This document shows, one piece after another, positions 4,601-10,600 of a stretch of DNA of 64,000 nucleotides (position 1 is the stretch's first letter; each line of letters begins with the position of its first letter). Source of the DNA: Escherichia coli (lineage in GTDB: Bacteria > Pseudomonadota > Gammaproteobacteria > Enterobacterales > Enterobacteriaceae); the NCBI RefSeq assembly GCF_003018115.1, contig NZ_CP027457.1; one strand, 5' to 3'. Position numbers: made by a program.

Positions 4601-7600
4601 AATTACTGCAAAAACGCAACGGAGGCTAATGGCATGAAATTGACGCTGAAAAACCTTAGCATGGCGATCATGATGAGCACTATAGTCATGGGAAGCAGTG
4701 CAATGGCGGCGGACAGCAACGAAAAAATAGTCATCGCCCATCGCGGTGCCAGTGGATATTTGCCGGAGCATACGCTGCCAGCAAAAGCGATGGCGTATGC
4801 GCAGGGAGCGGATTATCTGGAACAGGATTTGGTGATGACCAAAGACGACCATCTGGTTGTTCTGCATGACCATTACCTCGATCGTGTTACTGATGTTGCC
4901 GATCGTTTCCCGGATCGGGCGCGCAAAGACGGTCGTTACTACGCGATAGATTTCACGCTGGATGAAATTAAGTCGTTGAAATTTACCGAAGGTTTCGATA
5001 TTGAAAACGGTAAAAAAGTGCAGACTTATCCAGGGCGTTTCCCAATGGGTAAGTCCGACTTCCGGGTGCACACCTTTGAAGAAGAGATTGAATTTGTTCA
5101 GGGGTTAAATCACTCTACCGGGAAAAATATCGGTATCTATCCAGAAATCAAAGCGCCGTGGTTCCATCATCAGGAAGGGAAGGATATTGCGGCAAAAACG
5201 CTGGAAGTGCTGAAGAAATATGGTTACACCGGTAAAGACGATAAAGTTTATTTGCAATGTTTTGATGCTGATGAGCTGAAGCGTATTAAGAATGAGCTGG
5301 AACCCAAAATGGGCATGGATCTCAATCTGGTACAGCTGATTGCCTATACCGACTGGAATGAAACGCAGCAGAAACAGCCGGACGGAAGCTGGGTTAATTA
5401 CAACTACGACTGGATGTTTAAGCCGGGTGCCATGAAACAGGTGGCGGAATATGCAGATGGTATTGGTCCGGATTACCATATGTTGATTGAGGAGACATCG
5501 CAGCCGGGTAATATCAAACTCACTGGCATGGTGCAAGATGCTCAGCAGAACAAGCTGGTAGTGCATCCTTATACCGTGCGGTCAGATAAACTGCCTGAAT
5601 ACACAACTGATGTGAATCAGTTATATGATGCTCTGTATAACAAAGCGGGTGTAAATGGGTTGTTTACTGATTTCCCTGATAAAGCGGTTAAATTCCTGCA
5701 TAAAGATAATTAATGACACAGGCATCCGGGAAGGCAAAACCTGACCGGATGCCCTTTTCACAATATGCCTTTGACCACCAGGGTTTCCATACACATTTGC
5801 AATAAAAACAATGGGCTGCCTTCTACCGGCGCCTCTTTGACCAGCAATGAAATTTGCCGATAAAACGTCGGCTCCAGCGGGACAGAGCATAACTCACCGG
5901 CGACGGCTTTCAGCGTCAGCTCCGGTAACAGAGCAATTCCTAATCCCTGGCGAATAAAACTTATTGCCGTATCTGGATGGTTAAATTCATATTTAATGAC
6001 CGGCGTAATATTCTTTTCCTTAAATAACGCCATAATGCTTAATTCATAACGCCCCTTACTGATAATGAGCGGTTCTCCCACCAGTTCTTCCACCGATATA
6101 GCGTTATTTTTTGCCAGGGGATGAGCATCTGGCAGCACCACGGTAAATTTATCCTGATATACCGGGACGGAATACATTCCGGTTACCGGAAAATGGACAA
6201 AACCGGCATCGATAGTTTCGTTTTGCACCGAATCAATAATTTCACTGCTGTTCTCTTCGTAAGGAATGATTTTTATCTGCGGATGATAAGTTTCAAAATA
6301 GCGAATAATACCCGGTAAAATACACGCGCAGGCGCTGGGAAAGCAGCCGATGCGCAGCGTTCTGGTCGGGTTATGTTTTTCCTGCTCGGCAATTTCTTTC
6401 ACAGCGTTCACTTCACGGGTAATCGCCCGCAGATGGCTTGCGATGCGTGAGCCGGCGTCAGTCAGCTGCAGTGCTTTTCGCCGCTCGCGGATCAGGATCT
6501 CTACGCCAAGCTCTTGCTCCAGGGTGGCAATGGCCTGGCTTACGGCGGATTGCGTCATAAACAGGCGCTTACTGGCTTCGGTAAAGCCGCCATAATCCAG
6601 TACGGCGAGCAGGGTGTGGATTTGGGTTAGTGTCATTAGTAATATCTAATTAATATTATTAAAACGATTAATTTCTCTTATAGAGTGCATCCATTTATAC
6701 TCTATTTCTATCGAGTAAATCACATTTTGACGCACCTGTAGTGGTTCAGCCTGTGATGCTGAGCGGTGTCCTTGTGCGCCATTTGAACGGGTCGTTTAGT
6801 ATGAAAGAAAAATTATGGACGAAAGATTTTTGGGCAATCACCATTATTAGCTTTATTATCTTTTTCGTCTTTTATGTGTTGCTGACCTTATTACCTATTT
6901 ATATCTCCGATCGTCTCCATGCATCCCCTGATAAAGCTGGTCTGCTGGTGACATTATTTTTAATTGCGGCGATTGTTATTCGACCCTTTGCCGGGCAATG
7001 GGTGGGTAAATATTCGAATAAAACTATTCTGGTGCTCTCTTCTCTGGCCTTTTTGGTGGTCACTGCGCTGTATCCTTTTTGCCACTCAATAGAATCACTG
7101 CTTTTTATTAGGGTGCTTCATGGTATTACCTTCGGGGTTATCACTACGGTAAAAGGAACGATTTCCGCGCGGCTGATCCCGGCCTCCCGACGTGGGGAGG
7201 GCATCAGTTTTTTCTCTTTGGCAATGGGGCTGGCAATGGTGGTCGGGCCGTGGATTGGTCTGAATATGGCGCGCTGGGAAGCCTTTAATCTGGCTTTCTG
7301 GCTATGCACCGGCGTGGCAGCGGTGGGGATTATTCTGTCGCTGATTATGACAGTGCCGCCGGTTATCAGCCATGCTGATGGTTCAACGCCGAAAATGGGC
7401 TTTGCCGCCATGTTCGATCGCGCGGCGTTGCCATTTGCGATGGTCACCTTTTTTATGACCTTTTCGTATGCCGGGGTTTCTGCTTTTCTGGCGCTTTATG
7501 CTCGCGAACTTAACCTGATGTCGGCGGCCAGTAATTTCCTGCTTTGCTACGCCATCTTCCTGATGATCTGCCGTACCTTTACCGGCAATGTCTGCGACAA

Positions 7601-10600
7601 AAAAGGACCGAAATATGTGGTTTACCCTTGCCTTGTGTTCTTTACGGTAGGACTGGTGGTTCTCGGCTACACCCAGGGAAGCATAATGATGGTTGTTTCT
7701 GGCGCGTTGATTGGTATCGGGTATGGTTCCGTGACGCCAGTTTTTCAGACGCAGATTATCAGTTCAGTGGAACCGCATAAAATCGGTGTCGCAAACTCCC
7801 TCTTCTTCAATGCGATGGATGCAGGCCTGGCGCTGGGAGCCTGTGTGATGGGGATGATGGTTGCACATACTGGCTACCGAATGATTTATCTGCTGGGCGC
7901 ACTATTAGTGGTAGTGGCTGGTGGAGTCTATGCGCTGCAAATGAAGGGTAAAAGCGGTGTCGCGCTAGTAGTGGCAAAAGAAATTCATTAATACGACATG
8001 TTTCATTAAGATTTTTCGCAGGTAACCACCTATAGTCATTGTCGTTAATAAAAAATGACAGGCGATAGGGTATGGCAGTTTCAGCAAAGCACGACGAATT
8101 TAATCACTGGTGGGCAACAGAGGGCGACTGGGTTGAAGAGCCTAACTATCGCCGTAATGGTATGAGCGGGGTGCAATGCGTCGAGCGCAACGGCAAAAAG
8201 CTATATGTAAAGCGCATGACGCATCATCTGTTTCATTCCGTACGTTATCCTTTCGGCCGACCAACGATTGTCCGTGAGGTTGCGGTAATTAAAGAACTGG
8301 AACGGGCCGGTGTCATCGTGCCGAAGATCGTTTTTGGTGAAGCGGTGAAAATTGAGGGGGAATGGCGCGCGTTGCTGGTGACTGAAGATATGGCGGGGTT
8401 CATCAGCATTGCTGACTGGTATGCCCAGCATTCAGTAACGCCCTATTCTGACGAAGTACGGCAAGCCATGTTGAAAGCAGTGGCGCTGGCGTTTAAGAAA
8501 ATGCATAGCGTTAATCGTCAGCATGGCTGTTGTTATGTTCGCCATATCTATGTGAAAACAGAAGGTAAGGCAGAAGCTGGTTTTCTTGATCTGGAGAAAA
8601 GTCGTCGCCGCTTGCGTCGCGATAAAGCGATTAATCATGACTTCCGCCAGCTGGAAAAATATCTGGAGCCGATCCCCAAAGCGGACTGGGAGCAGGTAAA
8701 AGCGTATTACTACGCCATGTAATCGTTGTAGGCCAGATAATACGCGTAAGCGTCGTATCTGGCGCTAGTACCCGATCACAACTCGATTTCAATATCGCCT
8801 TTTGCCCGGCAACAACAGGGCAAAATTTCCCCCGGCTGAATAAAGGCTAACGGTTCGGCAATCCAGTCCACCTGGCCTGCAACAAGGCGCGTGCGACAGG
8901 AACCGCAGTAACCTTCGCGGCACTGGTACTCAACCGCCACATTGTGGGATTCCAGCGCCGCCAGAAGGGAAGGGTGTTCATCCTGGCACAGCAGTTGTGT
9001 GCCAGTGATGCGCAGGGTAACGCAGGCCATCAGAGCTGGAAGTTACTCAAATCGTCGGTGTCCACTTCCGCGTCAATCTGCCCGACCAGATAAGAACTCA
9101 CCTCCACTTCCTGTGGAGCAACCTGCACGTTATCAGACACCAGCCAGGTGTTGATCCACGGGATCGGGTTGGAGCGCGTCTGGAACGGCAGATCCAAACC
9201 AACCGCCTGCATACGGATATTGGTGATGTACTCCACGTACTGGCAGAGAATGTCTTTGTTCAGACCAATCATCGAACCGTCACGGAACAGATAATCCGCC
9301 CAGTCTTTCTCCTGTTGTGCCGCCTGGACAAACAGGTCATAGCACTCCTGCTTACATTCTTCGGCAATTTCCGCCATCTCCGGATCATCCGCGCCGCTGC
9401 GCAGCAGATTCAGCATATGCTGGGTGCCGGTCAGGTGCAGGGCTTCGTCGCGGGCAATCAGGCGAATAATTTTGGCGTTACCTTCCATCAGCTCACGTTC
9501 AGCGAATGCGAAAGAGCAAGCAAAGCTGACGTAGAAACGAATCGCTTCCAGCGCGTTAACGCTCATCAGGCAGAGATACAGTTTTTTCTTCAACTCGCGC
9601 AGGCTAACGGTTACGGTTTTACCGTTAACGGTGTGGGTGCCTTCGCCCAGCAGGTGCCAGTAGCTGGTCATTTCGATCAGCTCATCGTAATAGCTGGAGA
9701 TCCCTTCCGCACGTTTCTGGATCTGCTCGTTGGTGACGATATCGTCAAACACAACAGACGGATCGTTAACGATATTACGAATGATATGAGTATAGGAACG
9801 GGAATGAATCGTTTCTGAGAACGCCCAGGTTTCGACCCAGGTTTCCAGTTCCGGGATCGAGATCAGCGGCAGCAGTGCCACGTTTGGGCTACGACCCTGA
9901 ATGGAGTCCAGCAGCGTCTGATATTTCAGGTTGCTGATAAAGATGTGTTTTTCGTGTTCAGGCAGCGCCTGGTAATCGATACGGTCACGAGAAACGTCAA
10001 CTTCTTCCGGACGCCAGAAGAAAGAGAGCTGCTTTTCGATCAGCTTTTCGAAGATGTCATATTTTTGCTGATCGTAGCGAGCCACGTTGACCGGCTGACC
10101 AAAGAACATCGGTTCTTTGAGCTGATCATTTTTCGTCTGTGAAAAGGTGGTATATGCCATGAGTGTGTCCTGTTGGGAGTTTAATGCCGGATAAGGCATT
10201 TTACGCCGCATCCTGTGCCTGATGCGACGCTGGCGCGTCTAATCAGGCCTACAAACCGAGCCGTAGGCCGGATAAGGCGTTCACGCTGCATCCGGCACCC
10301 GGAGCCTGATGCGACGCTGGCGCGTCTTATCAGGCCTACAAACCGAGCCGTAGGCCTGATAAGGCGTTTACGCCGCATCCGGCATCTCAATATCAGATCT
10401 TACATGCGCCGCTTTCGCAGCCATCGTCCTGGATTGACGGCACCAGATCGTCCTGCGCGTCTTCAGCGCCGTCACGGGTGTTCTGATAATACAGCGTTTT
10501 GACCCCGAATTTGTAGGCGGTGAGCAGGTCTTTCAGCAATTGCTGCATCGGCACTTTTCCTGACGGGAAGCGTGACGGATCGTAGTTGGTGTTAGCAGAG

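What the first reader, a model, noticed from the sequence alone, without database searches (positions are those of the whole stretch)
5758..7991. Divergent LysR regulator + MFS transporter pair at the K-12 yfaH pseudogene position
Between glpQ and inaA this strain has an intact 292-aa LysR-type regulator and a divergently transcribed MFS transporter (about 396-416 aa), with an AT-rich dyad (TTAATATTATTAA) between them. K-12 retains only a LysR-family pseudogene here as far as I recall. It is a classic regulator-transporter cassette of unknown substrate, likely lost or degraded in K-12.
Basis: partly seen in the sequence, partly recalled or inferred. Interest (0 to 1): 0.35.

Follow-up and report, generated by a model that had tools for sequence, protein, structure and literature searches.

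The report
LysR regulator and MFS pump pair
This is an ordinary but uncharacterised gene pair, a regulator and the membrane pump it most likely controls, that most E. coli (K-12 included) have deleted; this strain keeps it intact, with an unusually foreign-looking copy of the regulator.

Summary
Window 5758-6636 (-) encodes a complete 292-aa LysR-type regulator. Window 6801-7991 (+) encodes a 396-aa, 12-helix MFS transporter; the 416-aa GTG form is not conserved. At the same glpQ-inaA position K-12 has only a 243-nt LysR tail (yfaH) and a 105-nt MFS tail, joined at an 8-bp direct repeat. This 1.9-kb deletion is in 3105 of 5426 complete E. coli genomes; 1211 keep the pair, and EcN lost it entirely. 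The pair is ancestral: it sits at the same place in Salmonella, Citrobacter, Kluyvera and Klebsiella, and is still paired at a different site in Leminorella. Both genes are under strong purifying selection. Best reading: a ligand-responsive LysR activator of a NorA-like proton-antiport exporter, substrate unknown. Unexpectedly, the regulator, operator and first ~150 nt of the pump gene (~5698-6950) are only ~76% identical to the usual E. coli allele. Synonymous sites are saturated and GC differs, while flanks are 99-100% identical. This allele is in ~2% of genomes; its donor is unidentified.

The parts
5758..6636 (-). LysR-type transcriptional regulator gene, 292 aa, intact (RefSeq WP_000176730.1)
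   Evidence: ORF. Pfam HTH_1 covers residues 3-62 and LysR_substrate covers 89-268. RefSeq annotation of the 100%-identical strain F9792. dN/dS is 0.05 against the common E. coli allele.
6801..7991 (+). MFS transporter gene, 396 aa, 12 transmembrane helices (RefSeq WP_001718552.1)
   Evidence: ORF. MFS_1 7e-59. 12 hydrophobic segments. AlphaFold2 model has pLDDT 91.5 and 12 helices. Best solved fold is NorA, TM 0.85-0.90. dN/dS is 0.02.
6637..6800 (.). Divergent control region between the two start codons (164 bp)
   Evidence: Sequence; alignment of 18-22 orthologous intergenic regions.
6646..6681 (.). Conserved operator block CTAATTAATATTATTAAAACGATTAATTTCTCTTAT, the presumed LysR binding region
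   Evidence: 26 of 36 columns are at least 90% conserved across Escherichia, Salmonella, Citrobacter, Klebsiella, Kluyvera and Pseudocitrobacter, against a 53% mean column identity. It is kept in Leminorella, Scandinavium and Pluralibacter. It is absent where the MFS homologue is paired with an unrelated LysR.
6650..6662 (.).
   Evidence: Single occurrence in 64 kb, 0.05 expected. The right half ATTAA is invariant and the left half nearly invariant.
6658..6672 (.). Second, overlapping dyad ATTAA-N5-TTAAT (contains a T-N11-A)
   Evidence: Single occurrence in 64 kb, 0.09 expected. It is the most conserved part of the block.
6696..6701 (+). Predicted -10 hexamer (TATACT) of the MFS promoter; no good -35, which falls in the operator block
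   Evidence: Substitutions in other genera keep TAnnnT on the + strand only (TATAAT, TATCAT, TATTAT, TAGAAT, TAAAAT). Position-based inference; the transcription start is not mapped.
6717..6734 (.). Second conserved non-coding block AAATCACATTTTGACGCA, function unknown
   Evidence: TCACA is invariant in all 22 taxa, including Leminorella. It keeps its sequence in two Citrobacter strains where a 56-nt insertion moves it away from the -10.
5721..5753 (.). Hairpin GGCATCCGG-N15-CCGGATGCC followed by CTTTTC, between the convergent glpQ and LysR genes; likely terminator
   Evidence: Sequence. It differs from the hairpin at the same place in K-12, O157 and E1V33.
5998..7884 (.). Stretch missing in K-12-type genomes (window equivalent of the 1879-bp deletion)
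   Evidence: BLAST of the window against K-12; junction alignments; repeat positions.
5698..6950 (.). Deeply divergent tract relative to the common E. coli allele (last codons of glpQ, terminator, LysR, operator, first ~150 nt of MFS)
   Evidence: About 76% nt identity inside the tract against 99-100% outside. LysR pS is 0.71 and MFS codons 1-50 pS is 0.75. LysR GC3 is 52.9% against 40.6%.

Best explanation
This is an ancestral enterobacterial two-gene module. The LysR-type regulator binds the conserved AT-rich operator (6646-6681) that starts 10 bp upstream of its own start codon and overlaps the -35 region of the divergent MFS promoter. By analogy with other LysR regulators, it represses its own gene and, when it binds a small-molecule inducer, activates the MFS gene. 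The MFS protein is a 12-helix, NorA-like proton-coupled exporter that removes that compound or a related one from the cell. The substrate is unknown. The module is dispensable in the gut: about 78% of complete E. coli genomes have lost it, by at least two independent deletions. Shown here: gene integrity, family membership, conserved pairing, purifying selection, the conserved operator and -10, and the K-12 deletion mechanism. Inferred: actual binding, direction of regulation, autorepression, direction of transport, and the existence of an inducer.
For: Domains and fold. The divergent pairing is conserved at the nrd-glp junction in seven or more genera and at a different site in Leminorella. 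The operator block has two overlapping T-N11-A dyads, each unique in the window, and is conserved across genera. It follows the LysR orthogroup rather than the MFS gene: it is lost where the MFS homologue has an unrelated LysR partner. HTH residues 9-37, where I place the DNA-recognition helix, are identical in both E. coli alleles despite 16% overall divergence, matching the conserved operator core. The -10 keeps TAnnnT on the MFS strand only. dN/dS is 0.02-0.09 for both genes. For an exporter: the best PDB sequence and fold matches are NorA, then SotB and VMAT. Most full-length NCBIfam matches are efflux families such as CntE, MxcK, Cmx/CmrA and sugar efflux, whereas importer matches are mostly half-length. 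R104xxxG108 and G149-P150 are invariant in the TM4 and TM5 positions typical of drug:H+ antiporters.
Against: There are no experimental data for either gene. No curated family threshold is reached for the transporter or its 30-55% relatives. Fold matches also include importers and exchangers such as MCT1, OxlT and DgoT. The antiporter motif C is only partial (GPWIG). The transcription start is not mapped, so the operator's position relative to the promoter is a prediction. The simple promoter scan did not report the proposed promoter, as expected for an activator-dependent promoter without a -35 but not positive support. A second conserved block (6717-6734) is not explained by this model.
Confidence: 0.55

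Rival explanations
1. Same regulatory logic, but the MFS protein is an importer (proton symporter) for a nutrient that the LysR protein senses, like PunR-PunC or HcaR-HcaT in K-12.
For: The LysR-plus-divergent-MFS importer arrangement exists in E. coli (PunR/PunC, PMC8376909; annotated). Fold search also returns MCT1, OxlT, DgoT and a lactate transporter at similar scores. The module sits next to glp uptake and catabolic genes.
Against: The best sequence and structure matches are exporters. No catabolic enzyme travels with the pair: in Leminorella the neighbours are dsbB, fadR and unrelated genes. PunR is 22% identical and PunC has no significant similarity.
Confidence: 0.25
2. The LysR protein mainly regulates neighbouring genes (glpTQ or inaA) or distant genes, and its adjacency to the MFS gene is incidental.
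For: LysR regulators often have regulons beyond the divergent gene (general knowledge of the family). The inaA promoter region lies in or just after the MFS 3' end, and both deletion types spare it.
Against: The pair stays together without glpQ or inaA in Leminorella, and without inaA next to it in the Salmonella, Scandinavium and Pluralibacter loci examined. The conserved operator sits between the two genes. glpTQ and inaA persist in the ~78% of E. coli that lack the regulator.
Confidence: 0.1
3. The cassette is already non-functional in this strain and merely not yet deleted.
For: It is lost in most of the species, by at least two independent events.
Against: Both ORFs are full length. dN/dS is 0.02-0.05 even across saturated synonymous divergence. 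The operator and -10 are intact and conserved. The exact LysR protein is found on at least 1000 contigs.
Confidence: 0.04

Closest known systems
E. coli K-12 yfaH (b2238) pseudogene between inaA and glpQ
   Same: Same chromosomal position. yfaH is the C-terminal ~80 codons of this regulator's orthologue: tblastn matches residues 214-290 at 83% aa, and the NCBIfam YfaH-type model NF007272 hits residues 226-290.
   Different: yfaH is a fragment left by a 1879-bp deletion. It derives from the common E. coli allele (93.6% nt to O157-type) and is only 73.6% nt identical to the window gene. The window protein scores 134.9, just under the model's 139 cut-off. That the K-12 fragment is named yfaH is from my own knowledge; the RefSeq record carries no gene name.
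PunR-PunC (YdhB-YdhC) of E. coli K-12
   Same: A LysR activator divergently transcribed from a 12-helix MFS gene, with a palindromic operator between them and an effector related to the transported compound (PMC8376909; annotation).
   Different: There is no orthology: 22% identity for the regulators and no significant similarity for the transporters. PunC is an importer, whereas this transporter looks more like an exporter.
NorA of Staphylococcus aureus (DHA1 drug:proton antiporter)
   Same: Closest solved structure by sequence (E 2e-13 over the N-terminal half) and by fold (TM 0.85-0.90, rmsd 2.5 A). Same size, 12 helices and a short central loop.
   Different: Only 17-19% identity. NorA's regulators are, from my knowledge, of other families, not LysR. 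No evidence for a quinolone or other drug substrate here.
YhhS/YfcJ-type MFS (NCBIfam PRK05122 / PRK12382)
   Same: Best-scoring full-length NCBIfam models. From my knowledge, these families contain E. coli exporters of sugars and glyphosate.
   Different: Scores of 110 and 84 bits against cut-offs of 374 and 364, so it is not a member. Its own relatives at 30-55% identity also reach no curated family.
Classical LysR-type regulators with solved structures (CysB, BenM, OxyR)
   Same: Same two-domain architecture, aligned over ~240-265 residues. The operator has T-N11-A dyads.
   Different: Only family-level similarity (E 1e-21 or weaker). Every NCBIfam equivalog model except the 68-aa YfaH fragment model scores far below its cut-off: GltC 127/350, AlsR 123/430, CynR 111/277. 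The effector therefore cannot be inferred.

Membership tests
LysR-type transcriptional regulators (LTTR) | N-terminal winged helix-turn-helix (Pfam HTH_1) | tested here: met
   PF00126, 70.1 bits against a 26.6 cut-off, residues 3-62.
LysR-type transcriptional regulators (LTTR) | C-terminal LysR substrate-binding domain, total length about 300 aa | tested here: met
   PF03466, 123.8 bits against a 28 cut-off, residues 89-268; 292 aa in total.
LysR-type transcriptional regulators (LTTR) | Divergent target gene with a T-N11-A dyad operator in the shared control region | tested here: met
   Dyads at 6650-6662 and 6658-6672, each unique in 64 kb, inside a block conserved across genera.
LysR-type transcriptional regulators (LTTR) | Effector-dependent activation and negative autoregulation | not testable with these tools
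   Needs a reporter, gel-shift or footprint experiment.
Major facilitator superfamily | MFS_1 profile match | tested here: met
   PF07690, 199.9 bits against a 33.4 cut-off.
Major facilitator superfamily | Twelve transmembrane helices in two six-helix halves; MFS fold | tested here: met
   12 hydrophobic segments. The AF2 model has 12 helices at pLDDT 91.5. 474 PDB MFS-type matches at E<=0.001.
DHA1 drug:proton antiporters (NorA-like exporters) | Conserved TM4 arginine (motif B, RxxxG) and TM5 antiporter motif C (GxxxGPxxGG) | tested here: inconclusive
   R104 and G108 are invariant, and G149-P150 are invariant, in 50 homologues. Motif C is only partial (VVGPWIGL). The motif definitions are from my own knowledge.
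DHA1 drug:proton antiporters (NorA-like exporters) | Reaches a curated efflux-family score threshold | tested here: not met
   TIGR00880 scores 74.7 against 131, CntE 73 against 235, and Cmx/CmrA 43.5 against 400.
DHA1 drug:proton antiporters (NorA-like exporters) | Proton-driven export of a substrate | not testable with these tools
   Needs transport or MIC assays.
YhhS/YfcJ-type MFS (PRK05122, PRK12382) | Score above the NCBIfam cut-off | tested here: not met
   110.2 against 374, and 84.2 against 364.
YfaH (NCBIfam NF007272, K-12 pseudogene product) | Score above cut-off; positional orthology | tested here: inconclusive
   134.9 against a 139 cut-off, a narrow miss caused by allelic divergence. 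The position is identical to the K-12 fragment.
PunR-PunC module | Sequence orthology of both proteins | tested here: not met
   22% identity (E 3e-9) for the regulators; no significant match for the transporters.

The most novel reading that the evidence does not exclude
The regulator, its operator and the first 50 codons of the pump gene (about 5698-6950) were replaced as one co-adapted unit by DNA from an enterobacterial lineage outside all sampled Escherichia. The rest of the pump was kept. E. coli therefore carries two ancient, functionally distinct regulatory alleles for the same transporter, possibly with different inducer range or expression level. A second conserved element (6717-6734) would add a still unknown layer of control. 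The foreign origin is fairly likely. The functional difference is untested.
Probability: 0.25. Interest if true: 0.45.

Novelty: new member of a known kind. Interest (0 to 1): 0.23.

Why it matters
It matters modestly. It gives the K-12 pseudogene yfaH a clear history: a microhomology deletion shared by 57% of complete genomes, which also removed a transporter. It also identifies an uncharacterised but widely conserved regulator-pump module with a well-defined candidate operator, ready for reporter and induction screens. Because K-12 lacks the module, it has escaped all K-12-based functional genomics. Strains that keep it, including O157:H7 and O145:H28, may have an efflux or transport capacity that the model strain cannot reveal. 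The deep allelic split of the regulator is a compact natural experiment on swapping a regulator while keeping its target.

Tried and rejected
1. Structured RNA leader or riboswitch in the ~93-nt 5' UTR. By eye, a long-range helix occludes the ribosome-binding site in the window, Salmonella and Citrobacter, with one apparent compensatory change. Folding z-scores are -0.88 (window), -0.83 (O157) and -2.7 (Citrobacter). RNAalifold gives only -4.3 kcal/mol with one covarying pair, and Rfam finds nothing. Not supported.

2. Leader peptide. A 10-codon TTG ORF in Salmonella and Citrobacter is interrupted in the window and in O157 (read). Rejected.

3. The 416-aa GTG start. Rejected because of the frame-breaking 13-nt length difference and the in-frame TAG in the common allele.

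4. CRP site at block 2. The right half matches (ATCACATTT) but the left half is absent. Rejected by inspection.

5. Block 2 as an alternative promoter on either strand. No conserved -10/-35 pair was found by inspection.

6. Donor of the divergent allele. The scan of one genome per species (GTDB representatives) found nothing closer than Escherichia sp. E1V33 at 87% aa. The 5.8-billion-protein search has no cluster between 84% and 99%. All named members of the allele's own cluster are E. coli. Donor not found.

7. Literature on yfaH, STM2280/STM2281 and the RefSeq accessions. Only incidental list mentions turned up.

8. A 51%-identical 'LysR' (P0180) proved to be a 2x-coverage metagenome contig. 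It joins window-type sequence (MFS, operator, LysR residues 1-99) to an unrelated effector domain, probably a chimeric assembly.

9. Mobile-element origin. There are no plasmid copies, and the position is syntenic across genera. Rejected.
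Full report
OBSERVATION. ORF 5758-6636 (-) encodes 292 aa carrying the LysR helix-turn-helix and LysR substrate-binding domains. The opposite-strand ORF carries MFS_1. The flanks are glpT, glpQ (4634-5713) and inaA (8072-8722), followed by yfaE, nrdB and nrdA. The region is 100% identical to E. coli strain F9792, whose RefSeq annotation calls the genes 'LysR family transcriptional regulator' and 'MFS transporter'.

The transporter starts at ATG 6801 (396 aa), not GTG 6741 (416 aa). Every orthologue begins MKEKLWTKDF. The common E. coli allele has a 13-nt shorter leader and an in-frame TAG two codons upstream of the ATG.

COMPARISON WITH K-12. In MG1655 the glpQ-inaA interval holds two annotated pseudogene fragments. 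One is a LysR gene lacking its N-terminus (243 nt). The other is a 105-nt 'hypothetical' that aligns with the last 107 nt of the MFS gene. From my own knowledge, the LysR fragment is yfaH (b2238). The NCBIfam 68-aa model NF007272 matches residues 226-290 of the window protein.

The two remnants meet at TTTATCTG. In an intact O157-type locus this octamer occurs at both ends of the missing 1879 bp, at LysR codon ~213 and MFS codon 362. The loss is therefore a single deletion between 8-bp direct repeats.

The deletion is not K-12-specific. A contiguous K-12-type junction is present in 3105 of 5426 complete E. coli genomes. The full-length pair is present in 1211. In strain EcN (which I take to be phylogroup B2) the interval is only 201 bp with no remnant, so that is a separate, larger deletion. 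About 1100 genomes fall in neither of the first two classes.

THE PAIR IS ANCESTRAL. The order nrdAB-yfaE-(inaA)-MFS / LysR-(glpQ, glpT)-glpABC holds in other Escherichia species, Salmonella, Citrobacter, Kluyvera, Klebsiella, Scandinavium and Pluralibacter. In Leminorella the same divergent pair lies among different genes, next to dsbB and fadR. The two genes therefore travel as a unit. There are no plasmid copies.

Both genes are under strong purifying selection, with dN/dS of 0.02-0.09 in all comparisons.

CONTROL REGION. I aligned 18 and then 22 orthologous intergenic regions. Starting 10 bp from the LysR start codon there is a 36-bp block (6646-6681). In it, 26 columns are at least 90% conserved, against a 53% mean for the whole alignment.

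It also contains an overlapping, better conserved dyad ATTAA-N5-TTAAT (6658-6672). Both have the T-N11-A form typical of LysR boxes. Each occurs once in the 64-kb window, against 0.05-0.09 expected.

Twenty-four bp downstream of the second dyad lies TATACT (6696-6701). Its variants in other genera keep TAnnnT only on the transporter strand, which points to the -10 of the MFS promoter. The matching -35 position falls in the operator and is poor, as expected for an activator-dependent promoter.

The block follows the regulator, not the transporter. A 43%-identical LysR orthologue keeps part of it. An MFS homologue (56% identity) paired with an unrelated LysR has none of it. HTH residues 9-37, where I place the DNA-recognition helix, are identical in the two E. 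coli alleles.

These points support, but do not prove, the standard LysR mechanism: binding at the shared region, autorepression, and inducer-dependent activation of the divergent gene.

THE TRANSPORTER. It has 12 hydrophobic segments. A confident AlphaFold2 model (pLDDT 91.5) shows 12 helices. The closest solved protein by sequence and by fold is the S. aureus efflux pump NorA, at E 2e-13 and TM 0.85-0.90. SotB, VMAT, MCT1 and OxlT follow.

Most full-length NCBIfam matches are exporter families, but all are far below their cut-offs. The exhaustive search shows a tight orthogroup, then paralogues at 37% identity or less that also reach no curated family. R104, G108, G149, P150, R258 and D266 are invariant among 50 homologues.

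I conclude that a proton-coupled exporter is the more likely reading (about 0.6 against 0.25 for an importer). The substrate cannot be named. No paper addresses either gene. PunR-PunC is the nearest characterised analogue in architecture (PMC8376909), but it is unrelated in sequence.

UNEXPECTED FINDING: A DEEPLY DIVERGENT REGULATORY ALLELE. I compared the window with the intact locus of O157:H7.
- glpQ is 99.4% identical and inaA 99.8%.
- The MFS protein is 99.0% identical (392/396).
- The LysR gene is only 76% identical in DNA and 84.2% in protein.
- The intergenic region is ~70% identical, and the first 150 nt of the MFS gene are 83% identical.

The left boundary lies in the last codons of glpQ, which is one codon longer here and is followed by a different terminator hairpin. 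The right boundary is near 6950.

Inside the tract synonymous sites are saturated: pS is 0.71 for LysR and 0.75 for MFS codons 1-50, with almost no amino-acid change in the latter. That is at least as divergent as E. coli against Salmonella.

In a neighbour-joining tree the window LysR branches outside E. coli, Escherichia sp. MOD1-EC7003, Escherichia sp. E1V33 and E. whittamii. The MFS gene groups with E. coli. The window's leader is of the Salmonella/Citrobacter type rather than the shortened Escherichia type. LysR GC3 is 52.9% against 40.6%.

The allele is present at 99% identity or more in 108 of 5426 complete genomes. These include O145:H28 and O169:H41 strains. No closer relative exists among the species-representative genomes or in the 5.8-billion-protein collection.

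The most economical reading is homologous replacement of a ~1.25-kb segment by DNA from an unsampled lineage. An ancient polymorphism maintained in the species is the alternative. K-12's yfaH remnant belongs to the common allele.

WHAT REMAINS UNEXPLAINED. A second conserved block, AAATCACATTTTGACGCA (6717-6734), has TCACA invariant in all 22 taxa. It lies in the predicted 5' UTR. It is not a full CRP site. An RNA-structure explanation failed the tests.

VERDICT. It is an uncharacterised member of a very common kind, a LysR-MFS divergon. Its value is as a well-defined target for a reporter screen and as a tidy example of gene loss and allele replacement in E. coli. Interest is low to moderate.

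Noticed in passing
window 5698-6950: A ~1.25-kb tract (end of glpQ, terminator, LysR, operator, first ~150 nt of MFS) is only ~76% identical to the common E. coli allele, while the flanks are 99-100% identical. Synonymous sites are saturated and GC3 is 52.9% against 40.6%. The allele is in ~108 of 5426 complete genomes (O145:H28, O169:H41 and others). Its donor is unidentified.
   Followed up: yes
window 6717-6734: A second strongly conserved non-coding block, AAATCACATTTTGACGCA, sits in the predicted 5' UTR of the MFS gene. TCACA is invariant in 22 taxa, including Leminorella. It is not a full CRP site, and no conserved RNA structure supports it. Its function is unknown.
   Followed up: partly
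window 7250-7700: A second, milder mosaic patch lies inside the MFS gene. It is ~90% identical to O157, and the gene segment containing it (MFS nt 450-900) is ~95% identical to Escherichia sp. MOD1-EC7003. This points to further recombination within the gene.
   Followed up: partly
L003 1440-2510 (O157:H7 PA20); also L031 938-2008: O157-type loci carry an extra 356-aa orphan ORF between glpQ and the LysR gene. It has no Pfam, NCBIfam or PADLOC match and is frameshifted in strain SC418. It is absent from this window and from K-12.
   Followed up: partly
L011 and L009 (Citrobacter sp. wls619, Citrobacter sp. Res13), intergenic region: A 56-nt insertion lies between the predicted -10 and conserved block 2. 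Both elements are left intact, so their spacing is not critical.
   Followed up: no
window 7885-8071; L002 3003-3186; L023 3501-3598: Both independent deletion types spare at least 98 bp upstream of inaA: K-12 keeps 107 nt of the MFS 3' end, and EcN keeps 19 nt. This may reflect selection to keep the inaA promoter, which from my own knowledge is MarA/SoxS/Rob-regulated.
   Followed up: no
L033 (metagenome contig, 2x coverage): Window-type MFS, operator and LysR residues 1-99 are fused to an unrelated LysR effector domain. This is probably a chimeric assembly rather than a real domain swap.
   Followed up: partly
window 5721-5753: The hairpin between the convergent glpQ and LysR genes (GGCATCCGG-N15-CCGGATGCC, then CTTTTC) is entirely different from the one at the same place in K-12, O157 and Escherichia sp. 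E1V33. It is part of the divergent tract.
   Followed up: partly
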